Positions 5,525 to 54,403 of a stretch of 64,000 bases of DNA are shown here, one piece after another. Each line of letters begins with the position of its first letter. Position 1 is the stretch's first letter. The translations under genes were made by a program, and so were the position numbers. Origin of the DNA: Planctomycetia bacterium. GTDB taxonomy: Bacteria > Planctomycetota > Planctomycetia > Pirellulales > JALHLM01. The stretch is from contig JAWXBP010000249.1 in the NCBI GenBank assembly GCA_034440135.1, positions 14,232 to 78,231 of the forward strand, written 5' to 3'. Below the pieces are notes generated by a model, which was given only the letters and a program-made list of their open reading frames with translations, ran no database searches and had not been told where the DNA came from.

Positions 5525-6958
5525 ATGGCGACAGATATTCCAGGCAATACCGGCGGACTTCCTCCGGCAGTGCGCCGTCGATTACAGGCGCAGTTCGAGG
5601 CCGGCAGCCAGAAATCGAACCGCGGCGAGTACGACTATGCCACCACGATGTTCGCCGCCTGCGTCGAGGGGGATCCGGCCAACCAGATCTATTTGCAGAG
5701 CTTCCTCGGCAACCTCTATAAGAAGTTCGACAACAACAAAAAGGGAGATCGGCTGTCCTCGGTGAAAGGGGTCGGCATCAAAGGCTCGATCAAGAAATCC
5801 GAGATGCAGAAGGACTGGCTCGGAGTGATCAAATCGGGCCTGGACATGCTCAAGCTCAACCCCTGGGATGTCGGCGCGTTGACGGCGATGGCCTCTGCCA
5901 GTGAAAAACTGGGCCATGAGGAGTGCCGGATTCTCTACTTGCGCGGCGCGCTGGGGGCCAATCCCGCAGATCCGGAAGTCAATCGCTTATGTGGCCGTGC
6001 TTTGCGCGAGCTGGGGCGTTTCGACGAAGCCATCACGTGCTTTCGCCGCGTTGTGCAAGCCAAGCCAGGCGATGAAGAGGGAATGCAAACGCTGCGCGCG
6101 CTGGACGCCGAGCGGGCCATCAAGAAAGGCGGCTTCGAGGACGCCCAGTCCAGCACCGACGTGATGGTCGACAAACAATTGCAACAGGAACGTCGCCAAG
6201 GGGGCGGCGTGCAATTGACGGCCGAACAAGTGATTGAGCGACATCTCACGAAGAATCCAACCGACATTCCCAAGTATCTGGAATTGGCCAATCTTCATGC
6301 CAGCAACCAGAAGCTCGAAGACGCCGAAAAAGTGCTGACGCGGGCCCTTGAAGCGTCCGGAGGCGATTTGCAAATCCGCGAGCGTCTCGAAGACCTGCAG
6401 ATGCGCCGCACGCGCGAAGCCGTCGAGACCGCCAAGAAACAGGCGGAAACGGACCGCACGCCGCAATCGGAAGAATTGTGGAGAAAGATGAAGGCGGAGT
6501 TGAACACGCGCGAGCTGGAGTTCTATCGCGGGCATGTGCAACGCTATCCGACGCAGCATGGCTACAAATATGAGTTGGCCTCACGCATGATGAAGGCAAA
6601 AATGTATCGCGAGGCGATCCCGCTGCTGCAGGAAGCTCAGCAAGACCCCAAGCGCAAGGCCGAGGTCTTGAAGGCGCTCGGCGAGTGCTTCGTGCAGATC
6701 AAACAGTACAAGCTCGGCATGCAAAACTTCGAGGCGGCCTTGGAACAAATTCCCGCTCGTGAGCCGGAACTTCGCAAGGAAACGCTTTACTTCACTGGCA
6801 AGGTAGCCTTCCTGGCGCTCAAGGATTTGGAGAAGGCCGACAAGTATCTGACGGAACTGGCCGGGATGGATTTCGGCTATCGCGACGTCTCTCAACTCCT
6901 CGAACAAATCGCTAGCGCCCGCGGCGACGGCGCCGCCGGCGCGGTCGATTTAAGTTAG
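5525..6958 (+). CDS. tetratricopeptide (TPR) repeat protein
   Basis: 477-aa ORF, ATG start. Repeated 34-aa helical units (e.g. YLRGALGANPADPEVNRLCGRALRELGRFDEAITCFRRVVQAKPGDEE). No enzymatic motifs. Confidence 0.7.
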   Translation: MATDIPGNTGGLPPAVRRRLQAQFEAGSQKSNRGEYDYATTMFAACVEGDPANQIYLQSFLGNLYKKFDNNKKGDRLSSVKGVGIKGSIKKSEMQKDWLGVIKSGLDMLKLNPWDVGALTAMASASEKLGHEECRILYLRGALGANPADPEVNRLCGRALRELGRFDEAITCFRRVVQAKPGDEEGMQTLRALDAERAIKKGGFEDAQSSTDVMVDKQLQQERRQGGGVQLTAEQVIERHLTKNPTDIPKYLELANLHASNQKLEDAEKVLTRALEASGGDLQIRERLEDLQMRRTREAVETAKKQAETDRTPQSEELWRKMKAELNTRELEFYRGHVQRYPTQHGYKYELASRMMKAKMYREAIPLLQEAQQDPKRKAEVLKALGECFVQIKQYKLGMQNFEAALEQIPAREPELRKETLYFTGKVAFLALKDLEKADKYLTELAGMDFGYRDVSQLLEQIASARGDGAAGAVDLS

Positions 6959-6973
6959 TTCGCGGAGCACCTC

Positions 6974-7498
6974 ATGTCGCCTGCGCCCCCACCGGACAGC
7001 GTCTCGGAACATCGCGCATCGTCGCCGCGCCGCATTCAATGCGCGGTCATCACCGTGAGCGACACGCGGACGCCGGAGACCGACACTGGCGGCGCCACGG
7101 CGATCGATCTCTTGAACGAGTTCGGCCATCACGTCGTAGTCCGTGAAGTCATCCGTGACGAGCCAACTGCGATTCGCGCAATAATGGAATCACTGCGCAC
7201 GCGTGACGACATCGATGCGATCTTGCTCACCGGCGGCACCGGGTTGGGCTCCCGAGATCAAACTTTCGAAACGATCTCGTCGTTGCTCACCAAAACATTG
7301 CCCGGCTACGGCGAGCTGTTTAGGATGCTGAGTTACGCGGAAATCGGCGCGGCGGCGATGCTTAGCCGCGCGGTGGGGGGCTTGATCGACAAGCAAGTTG
7401 TGCTAACGATGCCCGGCTCGCCCGCCGGCGTGCGTTTGGCGGTACAACAACTGATCGGACCGGAGCTGGCACATCTGGTGCGCGAGGCGAAGCGCTAA
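6974..7498 (+). CDS. moaB: molybdenum cofactor biosynthesis protein B (MoaB/MogA family)
   Basis: CAVITVSDTRT...ILLTGGTGLGSRDQTFE...LPGYGELFR...TMPGSPAGV are MoaB hallmark blocks. Confidence 0.85.
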   Translation: MSPAPPPDSVSEHRASSPRRIQCAVITVSDTRTPETDTGGATAIDLLNEFGHHVVVREVIRDEPTAIRAIMESLRTRDDIDAILLTGGTGLGSRDQTFETISSLLTKTLPGYGELFRMLSYAEIGAAAMLSRAVGGLIDKQVVLTMPGSPAGVRLAVQQLIGPELAHLVREAKR

Positions 7499-9063: not shown

Positions 9064-9078
9064 CGCAGTCCGCGCAGG

Positions 9079-9250
9079 AGGATTCACCACGGAGAGCACG
9101 GAGCACTCGGAGGTGGGATCTAGTTCTACCTTCGTTCCCCGGACGAGCCGGCCAACCCAATCGAATGGGGATTGGTTCCTCGCCGTACGACTGTTCTCCC
9201 GCTCTTTCGTTCCCCTCTCCGTGTCCTCCGTGCTCTCCGTGGTAAATCCT
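9079..9250. repeat. inverted repeat, about 35-nt arms (octamer-periodic CTCCGTG family), about 100-nt spacer
   Basis: Left arm aggattcaccacggagagcacggagcactcggagg (9079-9113). Right arm cctctccgtgtcctccgtgctctccgtggtaaatcct (9213-9250). The reverse complements match at about 85-90%. Confidence 0.7.
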
Positions 9251-9458
9251 CGGATTTGCGCCCCGTGGATTCCTCGCCGCGCCCCGTCCGCGCTGCTCTT
9301 GCGCGCGGCTATGCTTATTGGACGCCATGACGGCGGCATTTCCGAGCGACTCGGTTTTGATGCGACACCCGGTATTTCCTCCATTTCCCCTTGACGCGGC
9401 ATTCGTGAGCAGCACAACTCCCCGACCCATTTCCCCGGCTATCCCCGCCTCCACCACT

Positions 9459-25074: not shown

Positions 25075-25152
25075 GTGGCTGGGGTCGAATGTACTCATTC
25101 GCCCCCAGGTTGAGCGCGCTGGGGGCGAGCGAGTACGCTCGACCCCAGCCAC
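25075..25152. repeat. 34-nt-arm imperfect palindrome (long hairpin) between convergent genes
   Basis: gtggctggggtcgaatgtactcattcgcccccag (25075-25108), 10-nt loop, ctgggggcgagcgagtacgctcgaccccagccac (25119-25152). 30/34 positions are complementary. Confidence 0.65.
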
Positions 25153-28694: not shown

Positions 28695-29462
28695 TTGAAC
28701 CTTCATTTCGTTCAAGCAGCTTGGAATTCGGCAATTCGCTGCGCCTGCGCGGCAGTGCTGCTAGCGCTGGTTGCTACGAATGCAGCGCGTGCCCAGGACG
28801 CCGCCGTGGAGGAACTGCCGCCGGCGTTGACCCATTACCAGGGCCGGGAAATCGCGCAGACGATGCACTACCTCGGCGCCGATTGGCTAACTCGCGAATC
28901 CCGGCAGCGCGAAGAGGACTGCGACCGAATGTTGGCGGCGCTCAAGCTGCAGCCCGGACAAAACGTCTGCGATTTAGGCTGCGGCAATGGCTTCTACACG
29001 CTGCCCATGGCTGCGCTGGTCGGTGAAATGGGGCGCGTGTTCGCCGTCGATATTCAGCAAGAGATGCTGCACCTATTGGATGAGCGAGCCAAAGACGCCG
29101 GGCACGCGAACATCGAGCCGGTGCTCGGTTCGCCGATCGATCCGAGATTGCCCGAAGGAAAGCTCGACGTGATTCTGCTCGTCGACGTCTATCACGAGAT
29201 GTCGCACCCCGAGCAGATGCTCCAGGCGATGCGCCGTGCGCTTCAACCCAAAGGCAGGTTGGTGCTCGTGGAATTCCGTTTGGAAGACCCCGAAGTGCCG
29301 ATCAAGGTGCTGCACAAGATGAGCAAGGAACAGATCAAGAAAGAGCTCGTGCCACACGGTTTTCGGCTGGTCGAGGAATACGATGACCTGCCGTGGCAAC
29401 ACATGATGTTCTTCGAGCCGGACGCGAAGGAAGGCACGAAGAATCGCGACACCAGCCCGTAG
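28695..29462 (+). CDS. class I SAM-dependent methyltransferase with N-terminal signal-like segment
   Basis: TTG start. Motif I VCDLGCGNGFYTLPMA. The last codons (TSP-stop) lie inside the palindromic repeat at 29450-29478. Confidence 0.75.
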   Translation: MNLHFVQAAWNSAIRCACAAVLLALVATNAARAQDAAVEELPPALTHYQGREIAQTMHYLGADWLTRESRQREEDCDRMLAALKLQPGQNVCDLGCGNGFYTLPMAALVGEMGRVFAVDIQQEMLHLLDERAKDAGHANIEPVLGSPIDPRLPEGKLDVILLVDVYHEMSHPEQMLQAMRRALQPKGRLVLVEFRLEDPEVPIKVLHKMSKEQIKKELVPHGFRLVEEYDDLPWQHMMFFEPDAKEGTKNRDTSP

Positions 29463-29597
29463 CGCAAGCGAGGGAGAGGGGACGTGGTTTACCGTTTCGA
29501 ATGAAACTCTCAGTTGCTCCGTTGATGCGCAACTGAGTGTTTCATCCCAAACTGTATGGCAGAATCCTCTCTCCCTCGCTTGCGCTACGGGCTGGTG
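29450..29597. repeat. perfect 29-nt inverted repeat (GCGAGGG palindrome family), about 90-nt loop
   Basis: caccagcccgtagcgcaagcgagggagag (29450-29478) and ctctccctcgcttgcgctacgggctggtg (29569-29597). Each arm contains the stop codon of the adjacent convergent gene. Confidence 0.85.
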
Positions 29598-30271
29598 TTT
29601 GAGGCCTTGAGAAGCGCCGTCTTGGCGAGCGCCGGGTCGTCGGTGATGATGCCGTCGACGCCGCAGCGCACCGCATGATCGTGATCGGCTTGCGTGTGCG
29701 CGGAGTAGACGAAGTTCTTCGAGTGCATCGCCACCGTTTGTTGCACGAGCTCCGGCGACAGATAGTCGAAGTGCCACACAAACGCCTCGACCGGCTGGCC
29801 GTTCGCGTAGCGGCCGAGGCGATCGGTCACCGGATCGATCGGTCGATGCGCGGTGAGCAACCCGCATTCCACGTCGACGGCCTGCCGCACTTCTTGGACG
29901 GCGGTGTGCCAGAACGAACTGACGAGAATCTTGTGCGTCGTGCGATAGCGCTTCAGGAGCGGTATCAACGCCGGCAGCACCGCGGGATCCTTGATCTCCA
30001 GGTTCCAGAGAATGCCCGGCTGCGCGTCGAGCGCTTGCGTCATCACGGGCGTGTCGTAGCCGGCCAGCTTCGACAACTCGGCGACGGTATGCGCGCCCAC
30101 CTCGCGTCGATCCGGCGCCAGGCGATCGTGATATAGCACAATCTGCCCATCGGCGCTCCACCGCAAATCGGTTTCAATGCCATCGACGCCCAACTTCACC
30201 GCGGCGTCAAATGCGGCCAGCGTGTTTTCCGGCAGATCGCGGTGATAGCCACGGTGGGCAAGGATGAGCAT
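29585..30271 (-). CDS. glycerophosphodiester phosphodiesterase family protein
   Basis: MLILAHRGYHRDLPENTLAAFDAAVKLGVDGIETDLRWSADGQIVLYHD is the GDPD signature (HRG...ENT...E-D). Confidence 0.85.
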   Translation of the reverse strand: MLILAHRGYHRDLPENTLAAFDAAVKLGVDGIETDLRWSADGQIVLYHDRLAPDRREVGAHTVAELSKLAGYDTPVMTQALDAQPGILWNLEIKDPAVLPALIPLLKRYRTTHKILVSSFWHTAVQEVRQAVDVECGLLTAHRPIDPVTDRLGRYANGQPVEAFVWHFDYLSPELVQQTVAMHSKNFVYSAHTQADHDHAVRCGVDGIITDDPALAKTALLKASNTSP

Positions 30272-30280
30272 GGGAGGGGA

Positions 30281-30450
30281 GTTTGAAGTTTTCAGTGTTC
30301 AGTGACAGTGAAACCAGCCGACGCGACTGTTCTCACAGTATACCGCACCTCAATCCCCCGTTCGTGCCTTTCGCGCCTTTCGTGGTTTCCACCATTTCGT
30401 ACACTCTCCCTCCTCCGTCCCCTCTGCGCCTCCGCGTCTCCGCGGTTCAA
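30281..30450. repeat. mosaic of three short-period repeat units filling an intergenic spacer
   Basis: gtttgaagttttcagtgttcagtgacagtgaaa (30281-30313); ttcgtgcctttcgcgcctttcgtggtttcc (30361-30390); cctctgcgcctccgcgtctccgcggttcaa (30421-30450). The first unit recurs at 38437 and 63749. Confidence 0.6.
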
Positions 30451-31321: not shown

Positions 31322-32764
<1,443 letters not shown>

Positions 32765-32797
32765 TTGAATTCTGAAAGGCTTGTGATAGTTGCTGAC

Positions 32798-33424
32798 TGT
32801 GGGAGGCGTCTCCGACGCCGATGGAGTTGACGTTGCGATGAAACACAACCGTCATGTTTTGTCAGAATACCATTTTCGATCGAGTATGCCTGCCCATTGC
32901 GGATTTGCCGATGAATACGCCCACAACTCGGGACGGTCGACTAGCCCCGCCCGAATTGGATTATTCTCGATGTAGTTGATTCGTTCGATGGCATCATCCA
33001 CGTCACGGCAACGATGGTCGAAAAAGCCTTCCTGCCACATTTGTCGACACCGCCCATCATTTCTAATGAACCGTGCTGAAGTGAACTTGCTGATACTACC
33101 AACGACATCCGATAGAGACTTCTTGCAAAGCAGAACGAAGAGCAAATGGTAGTGGTCTGGCATAACGCAAAACGCAAGTAGCTTCAGCCATTCACTTGTT
33201 CTTGCGTATGCCAAACTGTCCACGATCAGTTGGGCATTATGGGCATTCTCAAATAGCTTGTGTCGACCCTCAATAGCCTTTGTCACGAAGTAGGCCGCTG
33301 TTGCCTCGGATTGCCGACCGCCCCGCAATAGTTGGCTTTGCGGTTTTGGCTCTTGAACTATCTTGTGATTCGAGGTGTTGTCGTGCATCGACGTCCAATA
33401 TCGGCGTCGGAGACGCCTCCCACA
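32798..33424 (-). mobile_element. RAYT unit: REP-associated tyrosine transposase gene bracketed by inverted REP hairpins
   Basis: tgtgggaggcgtctccgacgccgat (32798-32822) is the exact reverse complement of atcggcgtcggagacgcctcccaca (33400-33424). Each contains the hairpin ggcgtc-tcc-gacgcc. The enclosed gene has visibly lower GC than its flanks. Confidence 0.8.
32852..33388 (-). CDS. REP-associated tyrosine transposase (RAYT; IS200/IS605 TnpA-like HUH nuclease)
   Basis: AAYFVTKAIEGRHKLF...LLAFCVMPDHYHLLFVL (HUH motif H-Y-H)...INYIENNPIRAGLV (catalytic Tyr helix). 178 aa, ATG start. Confidence 0.85.
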   Translation of the reverse strand: MHDNTSNHKIVQEPKPQSQLLRGGRQSEATAAYFVTKAIEGRHKLFENAHNAQLIVDSLAYARTSEWLKLLAFCVMPDHYHLLFVLLCKKSLSDVVGSISKFTSARFIRNDGRCRQMWQEGFFDHRCRDVDDAIERINYIENNPIRAGLVDRPELWAYSSANPQWAGILDRKWYSDKT

Positions 33425-33451
33425 AGTCGTGGCTGTTTCCGAAGTCGATTG

Positions 33452-34318
33452 TTAGTCCAAAGTCTTCCAGCTCGGCTTGGCCGGCAGGTACGAGTCGAAT
33501 TCCTTGACCAGCGATTCCTGGTACGCTCCGGCGAACGTGCCGCTCAGGAAGCGGTCGATGCCTTCGTTGAGCAGGCGTTCCCAGCTCGCTTCTTCGGCGC
33601 CCGGGTTGATCGGGAAATACAGCGTGTCGTTGGCCACCGCGGCTTTGTGGTCGCCCGGGGCGTCGCCGATCATCAGCACGTGGTCCGCGGCGTACTTCTT
33701 GGCGACGCCGAGGATTTCCTTCTTCGTGCCGATTTCTTGCCCGCAGATCGCGGCCACGTATTTTTCCAGGTCGTGCTCTTCCCACTCGCGTTGCAGGGCT
33801 TCGTTCGGCGTGGCGGAGACGACCAGCAAGTCGGCCTTGGGCTTGAACTTCTCCAAACATTCTCGCACGAACGGAAACGGCGGCACGCCGCGGACGAATT
33901 TGGTGATCATCTCGTTGACGGCGACCGACCACGCCAGGGCCTGCTTCAAGTCCGGGTCGCCGGTCGCTTCCACGGCCGCCTGCAGCGCCGGATTCGCCTG
34001 CTTGGTTTCCCGCGCGATCCAATCGCGCAGGCCCTTCGCTTCCGGAATCTTCACGCCACGGGCTTGCACTTCAGGACGTTTGCGCAGCCAGTCGAGCGAC
34101 TCCACGAGCGCCGGAAAGCGATTGATCCCACGGCTCTTCGAGTAGAGGTTGACGAACTCCGCCGCCTCGCGGGCGTACTTGCTGACGCCTTGCAGCTCGT
34201 AGTAGTTGATCGTGTTGGGAATGAAGCACTCCTTGTGCTTCAATTCCATCGTGTCGAACGCGCAGCCGTCGGAATCGATGCCGACGAGGAAGGAGTGTTT
34301 GGGCGATAAATCAAACAT
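33452..34318 (-). CDS. HAD-superfamily hydrolase
   Basis: Motif I GIDSDGC; motif III/IV region VLMIGDAPGDHKAA. 288 aa. Confidence 0.7.
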   Translation of the reverse strand: MFDLSPKHSFLVGIDSDGCAFDTMELKHKECFIPNTINYYELQGVSKYAREAAEFVNLYSKSRGINRFPALVESLDWLRKRPEVQARGVKIPEAKGLRDWIARETKQANPALQAAVEATGDPDLKQALAWSVAVNEMITKFVRGVPPFPFVRECLEKFKPKADLLVVSATPNEALQREWEEHDLEKYVAAICGQEIGTKKEILGVAKKYAADHVLMIGDAPGDHKAAVANDTLYFPINPGAEEASWERLLNEGIDRFLSGTFAGAYQESLVKEFDSYLPAKPSWKTLD

Positions 34319-38414: not shown

Positions 38415-38436
38415 ATTGATTGAAGTGTTCGGAAAC

Positions 38437-38566
38437 AGTTTGAAGTTTTCAGTGTTCAGTTTTCAGTGATTTGACAACGCGACACTTCAAATAGCCGGCC
38501 AGCATAACGATTCTCGATCAAGGGACGGACGGTTTCTCAAATACTGAAAACTGAAAACTTCAAACT
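38437..38566. repeat. heptamer-periodic (TTTCAGTG/CTGAAAA family) inverted repeat, about 65-nt loop
   Basis: agtttgaagttttcagtgttcagttttcagtgatttg (38437-38473) pairs with caaatactgaaaactgaaaacttcaaact (38538-38566). It lies 16 nt upstream of the flagellin ATG. Confidence 0.7.
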
Positions 38567-38581
38567 TCCCATCCTCCCCCC

Positions 38582-40675: not shown

Positions 40676-40688
40676 TGGCGGCGTCAAT

Positions 40689-40716
40689 TCTCCCTCGCTG
40701 GCGCTACGGGCTGGTG
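40689..40716. repeat. solo half-copy of the GCGAGGG palindrome family
   Basis: tctccctcgctggcgctacgggctggtg differs at 1 position from the right arm at 29569-29597. No partner arm occurs within 150 nt. Confidence 0.6.
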
Positions 40717-40722
40717 TGATCG

Positions 40723-47661: not shown

Positions 47662-47908
47662 TCGATAGCATGTTTGCCGTCGGGTGCGGAGAAATGATGA
47701 GTGCCTGGGGCAGCGGCGCTCAATGCGAGGTTTCGATGGTCGAACTTCTGGGGCTTCGTTCGACGCTTCAACAAACCGCCGCGATGCCCCAGTTTGTTCG
47801 AAACCGCAGCGATCATTTGTTCGCCTCAGCCCCAGGCACCCACGCTTATTCTTCAATGTCGAGCAAAACGCCGTCCTTAGCGCGATGTCGGCCGTACATT
47901 TCGCGTCG

Positions 47909-47940
47909 TTTCCCCCTCGCTGGCGCTTCGGGTTGGCGTT
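47909..47940. repeat. degenerate solo half-copy of the GCGAGGG palindrome family
   Basis: tttccccctcgctggcgcttcgggttggcgtt lies immediately 3' of, and overlaps, the peptidase stop codon at 47939-47941. Confidence 0.5.
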
Positions 47941-51794: not shown

Positions 51795-54173
51795 ATGAAA
51801 CGAATCCCCCGCTGTCGAACGACGGCGTTGACCTTCGCCATGCTAAACATGCTGGGAACCATGACGTTTGCGCAATCGCCGCAGCCCAACGTCACCGACT
51901 ATTCGGCCGAGATCAATGCTCTCAGCGCCGCCATCAAATACGAAGTCGACGCCAAGCAATTGCCGGCATTCTCGATCGCGCTCGTGGACGGCGATCACGT
52001 CGTCTGGTCCGCAGGCTTTGGGTTGCAGGACGCAGCCAAACAAGTTCCCGCCACCGCCGAGACGGTGTACCGAGTTGGATCTGTCTCTAAGCTATTCACC
52101 GATATCGCGGTGATGCGTATGGTCGAGGAAGGCAAGTTAAGTCTCGACGCGCCGGTCAGCGACTACCTGCCGAGCTTTCAACCCAAGAATCCGTTTAATA
52201 AGTCGATCACACTCCGGCAACTCATGTCGCATCGCGCAGGCTTGGTGCGAGAATCGCCGATCGGCAACTATTTCGACGCGACGAGTCCTTCGCTCGCTGA
52301 TACCGTGGCAAGTCTGAACGCGACCTCGCTCGTTTTGTCGCCGGAAACGAAGGTCAAGTATTCCAACGCGGGCGTGGCCGTCGTAGGCGAGGTGTTGGAA
52401 CAGCGCGCCGGGAAGCCGTTCGCGCCCTTCTTACGCGAAACATTGCTTCATCAACTGGACATGAAACAGAGTGATTTTGAATTGACGCCGGAAGTCGTCT
52501 CCCGCCTGGCCGATGCGGAGATGTGGACCTACGACGGGCGCCGCTTCCCCGCGCCGCGCTTCGCGCTGGGCACCGCGCCGGCCGGCAATCTTTACTCGAA
52601 CGTGCTGGATCTCTCGAAGTTCATCGTCTGCTTGCTGAACGAAGGCCGCGCCGGCGATGGGATGATCTTGAAGCCGGAAACGCTACGCGAGATGACGACG
52701 CCGATCTTGGACGCCAACGACAAGCCGCTGAAATTCGGGCTGGGGTTTCATGTTCACGAATTGGATGGCCACGTGAAGATCGGCCACGGCGGCGCGGTGT
52801 ATGGGTTTTCCACGCAAGTCGAAGTGCTGCCAGAGCAGAAGCTGGGCGTCGCGGCCGTTTCTTCGCTCGACGGCAGCAACGGCGTCGTTAGTCGCCTCGC
52901 GGACTTCGCGCTGCGGTTGATGCTGGCCAAGCAATCCGGCCAGGCAGCACCGACGTACCGCCGCACCGATGCGATTCCCCTCGCGCGCGCCCAGGAACTT
53001 GTTGGCAGCTACGAGAACGGCGACCGCACCGTTCGCGTGACGGAATTGGAGGGCAAAGTTCATTTGCAGCAGGGCGCATTTCGCCAGGAATCGCGCGCCG
53101 CCGTCGACAACGGCGCGATCGTGGTCGACGATTTCATCAGTTTTGGCGCCGAAGTGACATTGTCGCAGGACGGCGTGTTGCGAATCGCCGACGTGGACTA
53201 CACGCGCCTGCCCGATGAGCCGCCTGTCGAGATTCCTGCAGCGTGGAAGGGCCTGATCGGCGAGTACGGCGAAGATCACAACGTACTCTACGTCCTGGAG
53301 GATCGCGGGAAGTTGTGCGTTCTGATCGAGTGGTTCTACTACTATCCGCTCACAGAGGTCAACGAGAACGAATTCGCGTTTCCCGGCGATGGCCTCTATC
53401 ACGACGAGAAGCTCTACTTTACGCGCGACGTATCCGGCCGCGCGACGCAGGTCGTGGCCGCTGAGGTATTGTTCAAGCGCCGCGAAGTCGGCACGCGCGA
53501 CGGCGCGACCTTCCAGATCACGCCCGTTAAGCCAATCGATGAATTGCGCGCCGCCGCGCTGGCAGCCTTACCGCCGGAGGAGCAAGGCGAGTTTCGCGAC
53601 ACCGATCTCGTGGAATTGGTGGCGCTCGATCCCACGATCAAGCTCGATGTTCGCTATGCGACGACGAACAACTTCACCGGCGCGGTGTTCTATCAGCAGC
53701 CCAAGGCCTTCATGCAGCGGCCAGCGGCGGAGTCGGTCGTGCGCGTCCATCAGAAACTGAAGGAACGCGGGCTGGGCCTACTGATCCACGACGCGTATCG
53801 TCCGTGGCACGTCACGAAGATGTTCTGGGACGCCACACCAGCGGCGTTCAAGGACTTCGTCGCGAACCCGGCACTCGGTTCGCGCCACAATCGCGGTTGC
53901 GCGGTCGACCTCACGCTCTACGACCTGGCCACCGGCCAGCCGATTGAGATGGTAGGCGGCTACGACGAATTCTCACCGCGATCGTTTCCCGACTATGCCG
54001 GCGGCACGGAGCGTCAACGCTACTATCGCGATCTGCTGCGCGCAGCGATGGAGGCCGAAAACTTCCGCGTCTACGAATTCGAGTGGTGGCACTTCGACTA
54101 CCAGGACTGGCGGCAGTACCGCATCGGCAACGCGACGTTCGAGCAATTGAACGGCGTCCAGCAGCCCCGATAG
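51795..54173 (+). CDS. fusion protein: serine beta-lactamase/PBP-like hydrolase + D-alanyl-D-alanine dipeptidase (VanX/DdpX, M15D)
   Basis: Signal peptide. SxxK GSVSKLFT, Y-S-N, HGG box. C-terminal 200 aa or so: IKLDVRYATTNNFTG...HDAYRPW...GSRHNRGCAVDLTL...EWWHFDY (VanX Zn ligands). Confidence 0.8.
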   Translation: MKRIPRCRTTALTFAMLNMLGTMTFAQSPQPNVTDYSAEINALSAAIKYEVDAKQLPAFSIALVDGDHVVWSAGFGLQDAAKQVPATAETVYRVGSVSKLFTDIAVMRMVEEGKLSLDAPVSDYLPSFQPKNPFNKSITLRQLMSHRAGLVRESPIGNYFDATSPSLADTVASLNATSLVLSPETKVKYSNAGVAVVGEVLEQRAGKPFAPFLRETLLHQLDMKQSDFELTPEVVSRLADAEMWTYDGRRFPAPRFALGTAPAGNLYSNVLDLSKFIVCLLNEGRAGDGMILKPETLREMTTPILDANDKPLKFGLGFHVHELDGHVKIGHGGAVYGFSTQVEVLPEQKLGVAAVSSLDGSNGVVSRLADFALRLMLAKQSGQAAPTYRRTDAIPLARAQELVGSYENGDRTVRVTELEGKVHLQQGAFRQESRAAVDNGAIVVDDFISFGAEVTLSQDGVLRIADVDYTRLPDEPPVEIPAAWKGLIGEYGEDHNVLYVLEDRGKLCVLIEWFYYYPLTEVNENEFAFPGDGLYHDEKLYFTRDVSGRATQVVAAEVLFKRREVGTRDGATFQITPVKPIDELRAAALAALPPEEQGEFRDTDLVELVALDPTIKLDVRYATTNNFTGAVFYQQPKAFMQRPAAESVVRVHQKLKERGLGLLIHDAYRPWHVTKMFWDATPAAFKDFVANPALGSRHNRGCAVDLTLYDLATGQPIEMVGGYDEFSPRSFPDYAGGTERQRYYRDLLRAAMEAENFRVYEFEWWHFDYQDWRQYRIGNATFEQLNGVQQPR

Positions 54174-54359
54174 GGGCGTCAGACAATAGCCAGGGGTGGC
54201 AACCCCTGGAATCCATGAACATAAGTCAGAACGAGCCCCAGAGGGGCGACACGTTCGACTTTCTGCAACCCTGCAAAGAGTGTCGCCCCATGGGGGCTCA
54301 AGGTCGTCTTCGCTGGAATTCACCAGCGGTTCGCACCGCTGGCTATTGTCTGTCGCCCC
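54173..54359. repeat. 187-bp composite palindromic element (two inverted units of about 80 nt with internal hairpins)
   Basis: Termini ggggcgtcagacaatagccag and ctggctattgtctgtcgcccc (20/21 complementary). Internal hairpins at 54190-54209, 54235-54247, 54285-54297 and 54323-54342. Confidence 0.75.
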
Positions 54360-54403
54360 GGTGGGGCTGAAATCAGCATCTTTCCGCGTGAATTGGTCAA
54401 ACG

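What the first reader, a model, noticed from the sequence alone, without database searches (positions are those of the whole stretch)
32798..33424. Low-GC RAYT (REP-associated tyrosine transposase) bracketed by perfect inverted REP hairpins inside a sugar-phosphate gene cluster
The 178-aa gene has the HUH (PDHYHLL) and catalytic-Tyr (YIENNPIRAGLV) motifs of RAYT/TnpA-REP. It is flanked 29 nt downstream of its stop and 11 nt upstream of its ATG by 25-nt sequences that are exact reverse complements (tgtgggaggcgtctccgacgccgat / atcggcgtcggagacgcctcccaca). Each flank folds as ggcgtc-tcc-gacgcc with a 5' GTGGGA tail, which is the classical RAYT-REP arrangement. The unit is much less GC-rich than its neighbours and splits an otherwise co-oriented pfk-HAD-gnd-SDR-GDPD row. 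This REP sequence does not recur elsewhere in the window, whereas several other palindrome families do. That leaves open which families, if any, this RAYT mobilises.
Basis: partly seen in the sequence, partly recalled or inferred. Interest (0 to 1): 0.65.

Follow-up and report, generated by a model that had tools for sequence, protein, structure and literature searches.

The report
RAYT transposase gene flanked by REPs
This is a genuine but ordinary "REPtron": a domesticated single-strand DNA transposase gene bracketed by two copies of the short hairpin repeat it probably spreads, sitting as an insertion inside a sugar-phosphate operon of a Pirellulales (Planctomycetota) bacterium.

Summary
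A 178-aa ORF (32852-33388, minus strand) passes NCBI's REP-associated tyrosine transposase model and fails its IS200 model. Its HUH motif and catalytic Tyr are intact, and its closest solved structure is E. coli TnpA-REP (4ER8). It is bracketed by perfect 25-nt inverted repeats, and its GC is 0.49 against 0.62 in the flanks.

The 25-mer T-GTGGGAG-GCGTC-TCY-GACGC-CGAT is a dispersed, mostly extragenic repeat in Lacipirellula, Botrimarina and many Pirellulales MAGs. There it usually forms heads-outward doublets of discrete lengths (REPINs/BIMEs), and its stem shows compensatory changes.

Every RAYT relative examined (39-84% identical) has the same REP-gene-iREP layout, and none has a tnpB neighbour. 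Three relatives (HAD protein 79-91% identical) have a 45-98 nt HAD-gnd spacer with no RAYT and no REP. One diverged lineage keeps the unit at this same site, with the downstream REP arm unchanged (25/25; its upstream end was not recovered) and RAYT dN/dS of 0.12.

Verdict: a new member of a known kind (a RAYT/REPtron with short, perfect-palindrome REPs). The modest extras are evidence that the whole module was gained or lost as a unit, and that the gene is consistently low in GC. The REP copy number in the source genome could not be measured.

The parts
32798..32822 (+). REP copy, read on the + strand as T-GTGGGAG-GCGTC-TCC-GACGC-CGAT. Its head points outward, towards gnd, and it lies 29 nt downstream of the RAYT stop codon.
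   Evidence: Perfect 25-nt inverted repeat arm. The hairpin GGCGTC/TCC/GACGCC is in the minimum-energy fold. The arm matches the conserved unit (-1 to +24) of the dispersed family exactly.
32823..32851 (-). 29-nt spacer between the RAYT stop codon and the downstream REP.
   Evidence: Read directly from the sequence. It is 79% identical to the orthologous unit in L217, whereas the REP itself is 100% identical.
32852..33388 (-). RAYT / tnpA-REP gene, 178 aa. HUH motif at H79-Y-H81 and catalytic Tyr139.
   Evidence: Pfam Y1_Tnp 1.2e-11. NCBIfam REP_Tyr_transpos 112.7 bits, above the cutoff of 80. PDB 4ER8 is the best hit by sequence (2e-6) and by fold (Foldseek 9.4e-11 on an AF2 model with pLDDT 89). 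dN/dS is 0.12 against the orthologue in L217.
33389..33399 (-). 11-nt spacer between the upstream REP and the RAYT ATG.
   Evidence: Read directly from the sequence. No sigma-70-like promoter was found in 32600-33700.
33400..33424 (-). Second REP copy, read on the - strand as T-GTGGGAG-GCGTC-TCC-GACGC-CGAT. Its head points outward, towards HAD.
   Evidence: Perfect inverted repeat arm. The heads-outward layout is the same as in 62 of 62 dispersed doublets.
33425..33451 (.). 27 nt of the original HAD-gnd intergenic spacer, on the HAD side of the insertion.
   Evidence: The HAD stop codon is at 33452-33454. Relatives without the unit have a 45-98 nt spacer.
32765..32797 (.). 33 nt of the original HAD-gnd intergenic spacer, on the gnd side. 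The gnd ATG is at 32764.
   Evidence: This stretch is 32/33 identical in L217.

Best explanation
The 627-nt unit is a minimal REPtron. It consists of a REP-associated tyrosine transposase gene (RAYT, TnpA-REP) bracketed by one REP and one inverted REP of its cognate repeat family.

What is shown:
- The protein is an intact Y1 HUH enzyme of the RAYT class and is under purifying selection.
- The flanking 25-mer belongs to a repeat family that is dispersed and mostly extragenic in Pirellulales genomes. The family usually forms heads-outward doublets of discrete sizes. Its head (T-GTGGGAG) and loop (TCY) are fixed, while its 6-bp stem changes by compensatory substitutions.
- Relatives of the RAYT always carry the same REP-gene-iREP layout.
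- The unit is absent from the same HAD-gnd spacer in three related genomes (HAD 79-91% identical) and is retained at that spacer in one diverged lineage.

What is inferred from work on E. coli, Stenotrophomonas and Marinomonas TnpA-REP:
- The enzyme binds the folded REP on single-stranded DNA and distinguishes REP from iREP through the 5' head and the loop.
- It cleaves next to the hairpin with Tyr139, forming a 5'-phosphotyrosine intermediate, with the metal ion held by H79 and H81.
- It rejoins the strands, and in this way copies or excises REP doublets around the chromosome.
- The gene has no promoter-like site of its own and lies co-oriented inside the pfk-HAD-gnd-SDR-GDPD row, so it is probably transcribed by read-through.
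For: Protein class.

Inverted repeat and hairpin.

About 100 are in Lacipirellula limnantheis I41, Botrimarina colliarenosi and Pirellulales/Planctomycetota MAGs, and all of these have a TCN loop and a CGAT tail. The chance hits in actinobacteria lack both features.

Element boundaries: conservation drops sharply at -1 (T, 102/108) and at +24 (T, 98/108), which matches the window's arms exactly.

Doublets: 62 doublets in + then - order and none in the opposite order, with outer lengths clustering at about 71, 83, 88-90 and 101 nt.

Extragenic bias: 17-21% of REPs lie inside coding-like ORFs, against 61-69% of random positions.

Covariation: partner REPs were chosen by their head sequence alone. 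91.9% of cells pair, 4 of 6 pairs show double changes, and 31 cells are compensatory against 11 +/- 2 in shuffles (0 of 500 shuffles reached this).

Relatives: L061 (39-40% identical) has the identical REP. L211, L206, L209, L210, L212, L204 and L207 have the same architecture with swapped or altered stems. The GTAGGAG head with a 4-nt loop occurs in one clade and the GTGGGAG head with a 3-nt loop in the other.

Other points: no tnpB neighbour. Empty sites in relatives. Same-site orthologue with the downstream REP 25/25 identical and dN/dS 0.12. The exact protein was found on only three metagenome contigs, all with HAD and/or gnd beside the gene.

Literature: REPtron definition, REP types of groups 2 and 3, and the roles of head and loop (PMC8266576). 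GTAG-tagged REPs occur in Planctomycetes and a GTGG variant is known (PMC3733652).
Against: No biochemical data exist for this enzyme or for any planctomycete RAYT.

The REP copy number in the source genome is unknown. The 64-kb window holds only the two copies that flank the gene. Dispersal is therefore shown in related genomes, not in this one.

RAYTs are usually described as immobile and vertically inherited. Here the unit is missing from the orthologous site in the nearest relatives, and it lies at different loci in different subclades.

The hairpin is short and its folding energy is not exceptional.

The extragenic test used a heuristic ORF filter rather than gene calls.
Confidence: 0.85

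Rival explanations
1. The unit is an autonomous IS200-like insertion sequence. In this reading the REP-gene-iREP module transposes as a whole and the enzyme serves its own spread, rather than being a domesticated RAYT that services REPINs.
For: The unit is absent from the HAD-gnd spacer in three relatives. The module sits at different loci in different RAYT subclades: peptidase M3, Aldedh, leuS-glgC and HAD-gnd. Its terminal repeats are perfect. Its GC is below that of the host. Doublets and the gene-bearing unit share the same heads-outward layout.
Against: scores the IS200 equivalog model at 25 bits, below its cutoff of 55. The end hairpins are exact inverted copies, whereas IS200/IS605 left and right ends are distinct hairpins on the same strand (established knowledge; PMC8266576). 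The gene is single-copy in the window, and the exact protein was seen only on three contigs that show this same locus. The unit has persisted at this site across a divergence of dS 0.4-0.9, and position is conserved within subclades. Most copies of the 25-mer carry no gene.
Confidence: 0.1
2. The unit is a decaying relic. In this reading the RAYT no longer functions, and the two REPs survive only as neutral leftovers or as mRNA-stabilising or attenuating hairpins inside the operon.
For: Only two REP copies occur in 64 kb. The hairpins lie in an operon spacer, where REPs are known to affect mRNA (PMC8266576, introduction). No promoter of its own was detected.
Against: The ORF is full length and its HUH motif and catalytic Tyr are intact. 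dN/dS is 0.12 against the orthologue at the same site. The downstream REP arm is 25/25 identical in that orthologue, while the adjacent spacer is only 79% identical. The AF2 model is confident, with pLDDT 89.
Confidence: 0.03
3. The inverted repeat arose by chance, or is a plain regulatory or terminator palindrome with no connection to the gene between its arms.
For: The folding z-scores are weak.
Against: 100 shuffles of the window gave no match to the 25-mer. The same 25-mer flanks a RAYT that is only 40% identical, in a different genome and at a different locus. All eight other relatives whose flanks were recovered have the same layout (the ninth, L217, has only its downstream flank recovered, and it carries the same REP). 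No T-run follows the hairpin, and the terminator scan found nothing at the arms. There is no Rfam match.
Confidence: 0.02

Closest known systems
REPtrons with short perfect-palindrome REPs: group 3 TnpA-REP/RAYT, for example Stenotrophomonas maltophilia K279a REPtron Sm, Marinomonas MWYL1 REPtron Mb and the Pseudomonas RAYTs (PMC8266576, PMC5581495)
   Same: A tnpA-REP gene lies between a REP and an inverted REP. The REP is short, with a perfect 6-bp stem and a 3-nt loop, and is preceded by a conserved head. The loop and head are invariant while the stem is free to covary, which parallels the SELEX result that loop positions matter in group 3. The dispersed copies form inverted doublets (REPINs/BIMEs).
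   Different: The head is T-GTGGGAG, a GTGG variant rather than GTAG. The host is Pirellulales (Planctomycetota), not gamma-proteobacteria. Sequence-level assignment to a group was not tested. The REPtron is minimal, with one REP on each side. The unit is absent from the orthologous site in near relatives, whereas the literature reports no evidence of tnpA-REP mobility.
E. coli K-12 TnpA-REP (RayT/YafM; PDB 4ER8) and the REP/BIME system (group 2)
   Same: This is the best PDB match by sequence (E 2e-6) and by fold (Foldseek 9.4e-11, TM 0.61-0.65). The HUH and Tyr motifs align. The gene is flanked by inverted REPs.
   Different: Identity is only about 21%. E. coli REPs are longer and their stem carries an essential bulge, while here the palindrome is perfect. 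The query carries about 20 extra N-terminal residues relative to the aligned part of 4ER8.
IS200/IS605 family TnpA (IS608, ISDra2, IS200)
   Same: The same Y1 HUH fold (Foldseek 6e-07 to 7e-05). The coding sequence is bordered by hairpins. The module appears to have been gained or lost as a unit at one site.
   Different: The IS200 model scores below its cutoff. The ends are exact inverted copies rather than distinct left and right ends on one strand. There is no tnpB. The gene is single-copy in the available data. Its end sequence also exists as many copies that carry no gene.
GTAG-tagged REP superfamily (Di Nocera et al. 2013, PMC3733652)
   Same: A stem-loop tagged at one end by an unpaired GTAG-like motif. 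Stems of 6-9 bp are typical, units often lie in opposite orientation close to each other, and the superfamily has been reported in the PVC superphylum. A GTGG variant is known in Opitutus terrae.
   Different: Whether this exact family (GGCGTC stem, TCY loop, CGAT tail) is one of that paper's 24 GTAG families was not checked.

Membership tests
RAYT / TnpA-REP (REPtron) | Y1 HUH enzyme with an HUH motif and a single catalytic Tyr in the conserved positions | tested here: met
   H79, H81 and Y139 are invariant in alignments of 21-23 relatives. Pfam Y1_Tnp 1.2e-11. The motifs align to 4ER8.
RAYT / TnpA-REP (REPtron) | Scores as a RAYT rather than an IS200 TnpA on curated models | tested here: met
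   NF047646 scores 112.7 bits against a cutoff of 80. NF033573 transpos_IS200 scores 25.2 bits against a cutoff of 55.
RAYT / TnpA-REP (REPtron) | Fold closest to the solved TnpA-REP structure | tested here: met
   The AF2 model has pLDDT 89.2. Foldseek against the PDB ranks 4ER8 first at 9.4e-11, ahead of IS200/IS605 transposases at 6e-7 or weaker.
RAYT / TnpA-REP (REPtron) | Gene flanked by at least two REPs in inverted orientation | tested here: met
   Arms 32798-32822 and 33400-33424 are 25 of 25 complementary, with heads pointing outward. The eight relatives whose both flanks were recovered have the same layout.
RAYT / TnpA-REP (REPtron) | REP is a short palindrome preceded by a conserved GTAG-like tag | tested here: met
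   The tag is T-GTGGGAG, or GTAGGAG in a sister clade. The stem is 6 bp and the loop 3-4 nt. Covariation supports the stem.
RAYT / TnpA-REP (REPtron) | The flanking REP sequence is abundant and extragenic across the same genome | tested here: inconclusive
   The feature is met in related genomes. For the source genome only 64 kb is available, and it holds no copy beyond the two flanking ones.
RAYT / TnpA-REP (REPtron) | REPs organised as inverted doublets (REPINs/BIMEs) | tested here: met
   62 heads-outward doublets were found in 96 related loci, and none in the opposite order. Their lengths fall into discrete classes. This was shown in related genomes only.
RAYT / TnpA-REP (REPtron) | Single-copy gene that is vertically inherited and shows no mobility of its own | tested here: inconclusive
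   The gene is single in the window. The exact protein was seen only on contigs carrying HAD and/or gnd beside it. A diverged lineage has it at the same site, and position is conserved within subclades. Against this, three relatives have empty sites and different subclades use different loci.
RAYT / TnpA-REP (REPtron) | Strand-specific cleavage and strand transfer of single-stranded REP in vitro | not testable with these tools
   This needs purified protein and a cleavage and strand-transfer (CST) assay as in PMC8266576.
RAYT group 2 versus group 3 (Bertels et al. 2017) | Clustering with the reference sequences of a given group | not tested
   No reference set was available, because the paper's supplement is not held. 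The REP type, short and perfectly palindromic with a conserved loop, resembles group 3 (PMC8266576). Identity to the group 2 protein 4ER8 is about 21%.
IS200/IS605 insertion sequence | TnpA matches the IS200 equivalog model | tested here: not met
   25.2 bits against a cutoff of 55.
IS200/IS605 insertion sequence | Distinct left-end and right-end subterminal hairpins on the same strand, not exact inverted repeats | tested here: not met
   The two ends are exact reverse complements. The definition is taken from PMC8266576 and established knowledge.
IS200/IS605 insertion sequence | Several near-identical copies of the whole element per genome, often with tnpB | tested here: inconclusive
   No second copy exists in the window, and no tnpB in the window or in 12 homologue loci. 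The whole source genome is not available.

The most novel reading that the evidence does not exclude
The REP-tnpA-iREP module is itself a mobile unit, in effect a REPIN that carries its own transposase gene, and it has been caught between IS200-like autonomy and RAYT domestication. It entered, or can precisely leave, the HAD-gnd operon spacer. It has relocated several times within Pirellulales. It keeps a low-GC gene and a 25-nt REP that is identical across genera, even though the proteins have diverged to 40% identity. That pattern would point to occasional horizontal spread of the whole REPtron, or of its REPINs. If true, this would be direct comparative evidence for tnpA-REP mobility, which the literature says has not been seen (PMC8266576).
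Probability: 0.3. Interest if true: 0.55.

Novelty: new member of a known kind. Interest (0 to 1): 0.3.

Why it matters
RAYT/REPIN systems are best studied in enterobacteria and pseudomonads. This locus documents a compact and well-behaved example in Planctomycetota.

The comparative set separates the parts of the REP that are fixed (head and loop) from the part that covaries (stem). That gives a clear prediction of what the enzyme recognises.

The same 25-nt REP occurs in cultured strains (Lacipirellula limnantheis I41, Botrimarina colliarenosi), so the prediction can be tested experimentally.

The empty-site comparison adds a small piece of evidence on whether tnpA-REP genes ever move together with their REPs.

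For annotation, the locus explains a low-GC island that splits a conserved pfk-HAD-gnd operon. It also warns that the many GTGGGAG-headed hairpins in Pirellulales genomes are REPINs and not genes.

Tried and rejected
- Searched the window for degenerate copies of the REP, with up to 3 mismatches, with the hairpin core alone, and with a generic head plus hairpin. Nothing turned up beyond the two arms.
- Searched the window for a second Y1 transposase using a family HMM. None was found.
It returned only relatives of 40% identity or less, not the close ones. It did show that GTGG/GTAG-headed inverted repeats flank many distant RAYTs.
- A first extragenic test using any stop-free frame of at least 150 codons discriminated poorly in these GC-rich genomes (65% against 88%). 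I replaced it with a filter for coding-like ORFs.
- Folding energies of the arms are not exceptional, so I relied on covariation instead.
- No Rfam family matches, and no promoter or terminator consensus lies at the unit.
- I could not assign a RAYT group from 1 to 5, because the reference sequences are not held.
- I could not define the target site. The intergenic spacers of the relatives are too diverged to align with the window's 27 + 33 nt.
I reran it without that row.
- The REP copy number in the source genome could not be obtained.

Full report
**1. The observation**

The region reads exactly as described. An ORF on the minus strand (32852..33388, 178 aa) starts at the first start codon of its frame. 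It is bracketed by arms 32798-32822 and 33400-33424. These are 25 nt long and perfectly complementary, and they lie 29 nt after the stop codon and 11 nt before the ATG.

Allowing 3 mismatches, the 25-mer occurs nowhere else in the 64-kb window, and 100 shuffles gave no match. A generic search for a GT[GA]GGAG head followed by a hairpin also finds only these two sites.

Each arm can fold as GGCGTC-TCC-GACGCC, and three of the four strand/arm folds give this hairpin as the minimum-energy structure. The folding z-scores are unremarkable (-0.9 to -1.6).

GC is 0.49-0.50 over the unit and 0.60-0.66 in the neighbours. The neighbours are PFK, HAD, 6-phosphogluconate dehydrogenase, a short-chain dehydrogenase and GDPD, all on the minus strand.

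**2. The protein**

Pfam gives Y1_Tnp at 1.2e-11. NCBIfam's equivalog for REP-associated tyrosine transposase scores 112.7 bits against a cutoff of 80, while the IS200 equivalog scores 25.2 bits against a cutoff of 55.

The best PDB sequence match is 4ER8, E. coli TnpA-REP bound to a REP hairpin, at E 2e-6. The alignment runs through the HUH and Tyr regions. An AlphaFold2 model (pLDDT 89.2) has 4ER8 as its top Foldseek hit at 9.4e-11, ahead of the ISDra2, IS200 and IS608 transposases.

H79, H81 and Y139 are invariant among 21-23 relatives. An exhaustive HMMER search finds 10,899 cluster representatives at E <= 1e-3 but only 9 at E <= 1e-30. The protein therefore belongs to a small subclade of a very large superfamily.

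**3. The flanking repeat is a dispersed family**

I scanned one genome per species with GTGGGAGGCGTCNNNGACGCC. About 100 of these are in Lacipirellula limnantheis I41, Botrimarina colliarenosi and Pirellulales/Planctomycetota MAGs.

All of those Pirellulales hits carry a TCN loop (mostly TCC or TCT) and a CGAT tail, neither of which the pattern required. The scattered hits in actinobacteria have random loops and tails.

Conservation has sharp edges. Position -1 is T in 102 of 108 copies and position +24 is T in 98 of 108, with no signal outside those positions. The family unit is therefore exactly the 25 nt that form the window's arms.

In 96 related loci there are 62 adjacent pairs in + then - order, with heads pointing outward, and none in the opposite order. 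Their outer lengths cluster at about 71, 83, 88-90 and 101 nt. The partner REP often has a different stem (GGCCTC, GGGGTC, GCGGTC) but the same head and loop. This is the REPIN/BIME organisation.

REPs are depleted inside coding-like ORFs, at 17-21% against 61-69% for random positions (a heuristic filter).

For a covariation test I chose partner REPs by their head sequence alone. In these, 91.9% of stem cells pair and 4 of 6 pairs show changes on both sides. There are 31 compensatory cells against 11 +/- 2 in shuffles (0 of 500 shuffles reached this), and slid registers collapse to 23-46% paired. The hairpin is therefore selected for.

**4. Relatives of the RAYT have the same anatomy**

- L061, a Planctomycetaceae MAG, has a RAYT 39-40% identical to the window's and lying between leuS and glgC. 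It is bracketed by the identical 25-mer, extended to 27 nt.
- L211 (P0019) lies at the syntenic site and is 64% identical to the L061 protein. Its stem is swapped to GGCGAC-TCC-GTCGCC.
- L206, L210 and L212 have head GTAGGAG and GGCGAC-TCCC-GTCGCC.
- L209 has GCAGAC-TCCC-GTCTGC.
- L204 and L207 have both GGCGTC..GACGGC and GGCGAC..GTCGGC.

Head type and loop length follow the protein clades, whereas the stems vary with compensation. More distant RAYTs from metagenomes are also flanked by inverted repeats with GTGG or GTAG heads. None of the 12 homologue loci has a tnpB-like neighbour.

Position is conserved within subclades. L204 and L207 lie next to peptidase M3. L206, L209 and L210 lie next to Aldedh. 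L061 and L211 lie between leuS and glgC. Position differs between subclades.

**5. History at this site**

The three nearest HAD homologues with usable contigs have pfk-HAD-gnd-SDR in the same order. These are L213 (91% identity), L215/L216 (80%) and L214 (79%). Their HAD-gnd spacers are 45, 47 and about 98 nt, and they hold no RAYT and no REP. In the window the spacer is 27 nt, then the 627-nt unit, then 33 nt. The unit was therefore gained here, or precisely lost three times elsewhere.

L217, from another metagenome, carries a RAYT 84% identical at the same site. Only its downstream end was recovered. There the REP arm is 25/25 identical and the 33-nt spacer 32/33 identical, while the stop-to-REP spacer is 79% identical and gnd is 92% identical at the DNA level. 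RAYT dN/dS is 0.12 (dS 0.875), and gnd dS is 0.378. The gene is under purifying selection, and the unit has persisted here through substantial divergence.

The exact protein was found on three short metagenome contigs, all with HAD and/or gnd beside the gene. No second Y1 gene exists in the window.

The RAYT gene is 5-13 GC points below its flanks in all nine loci examined. Low GC is therefore a trait of the clade.

**6. Mechanism**

The following are shown: an intact RAYT-class Y1 HUH protein, a cognate REP family with a fixed head and loop and a covarying stem, and the REPtron layout.

The following are inferred from the E. coli, S. maltophilia and Marinomonas systems (PMC8266576) and from 4ER8. 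The enzyme binds the folded REP on single-stranded DNA. It uses the 5' head and the loop to tell REP from iREP. It cleaves beside the hairpin with Tyr139 and a metal ion bound by the HUH motif, and then rejoins the strands, which moves or copies REP doublets.

The invariance of the head and loop against a free stem matches the group 3 SELEX picture in that paper.

No promoter-like or terminator-like consensus lies at the unit. Transcription by read-through from the operon is a guess.

**7. Comparison and novelty**

This is a REPtron in the sense of Ton-Hoang and colleagues, and a RAYT/REPIN system in the sense of Bertels and Rainey. GTAG-tagged REPs have already been reported in Planctomycetes, and a GTGG variant in Opitutus (PMC3733652). 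The locus is a new member of a known kind.

Three things are mildly unusual. First, the empty-site evidence shows that the whole module came or went as a unit, while the literature states there is no evidence of tnpA-REP mobility (PMC8266576). Second, the REP is identical across genera despite 40% protein identity. Third, the gene is persistently low in GC.

The IS200-like rival is disfavoured by several observations:
- the model scores;
- the exact inverted ends;
- the single-copy status of the gene;
- its persistence at this site across divergence;
- the many copies of the repeat that carry no gene.

**8. Limits**

The REP copy number in the source genome is unknown. Related loci show roughly one extra element per 37 kb, so finding none in 63 kb is not significant. 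The RAYT group assignment was not tested. The cleavage site and the target site could not be defined.

Noticed in passing
window 60249-60324: A heads-outward doublet of a different hairpin repeat, CGTAC-GTCAGGCTTTCCAGCCTGAC. Its arms are 26 nt and 100% complementary, 24 nt apart. It looks like a REPIN of another family. The same hairpin lies next to a GTGGGAG REP in locus L034.
   Followed up: partly
window 14651-14753, 29449-29598, 40682-40717, 47897-47939: A repeat family containing CACCAGCCCGTAGCGCAAGCGAGGG. It occurs twice as long inverted pairs (34-48 nt arms, 88-97% complementary) and twice as single copies. No associated transposase gene is in the window.
   Followed up: no
window 9078-9251; 25075-25152; 54166-54366; 62324-62467: Four further palindromic pairs with unrelated sequences: CACGGAGAGCACGGAG arms, GTGGCTGGGG...CCCCAGCCAC, CCAGGGGTGGCAACCCCTGG-containing arms, and AT-rich 62-nt arms. 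The genome carries several hairpin-repeat families whose enzymes, if any exist, lie outside the window.
   Followed up: no
window 30270-30320, 38427-38570, 63739-63836: An AT-rich repeat GTTTGAAGTTTTCAGTGTTCAGT and (CTGAAAA)n tracts occur in direct and inverted copies in three intergenic regions. No copies were found in the 120 related loci.
   Followed up: no
L023 2603 and 5241; L114 6590: Three near-identical copies of a REPIN are embedded in a longer inverted repeat (CTGCTCAGTAGAAAACCC ... GGGGTTTTCTACTGAGCAG), making a MITE-like composite. In L114 it sits beside a 234-aa Y1_Tnp protein (6630-7334, minus strand; Pfam 2e-14) that is only about 25% identical to the window's RAYT.
   Followed up: partly
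L210 7395-7695; L204 2623-2793: There are BIME-like arrays downstream of RAYT relatives. L210 has six tandem iREPs at a 55-56 nt period after a RAYT called as a truncated 123-aa product. L204 has two REPs followed by three iREPs of a compensated stem variant.
   Followed up: no
nine RAYT loci: window, L061, L204, L206, L207, L209, L211, L212, L217: The RAYT gene is 5-13 GC points below its flanking DNA in every locus. Between the window and L217, its synonymous divergence is 2.3 times that of the adjacent gnd gene. The cause is unexplained.
   Followed up: partly
L001-L003 (JGI 3300020195, 3300020203, 3300020596): Metagenome contigs carrying the exact RAYT are only 1-2 kb long, and one starts exactly at the RAYT ATG, just inside the REP. 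This would fit assemblies breaking at a multi-copy repeat, but it is weak evidence.
   Followed up: no
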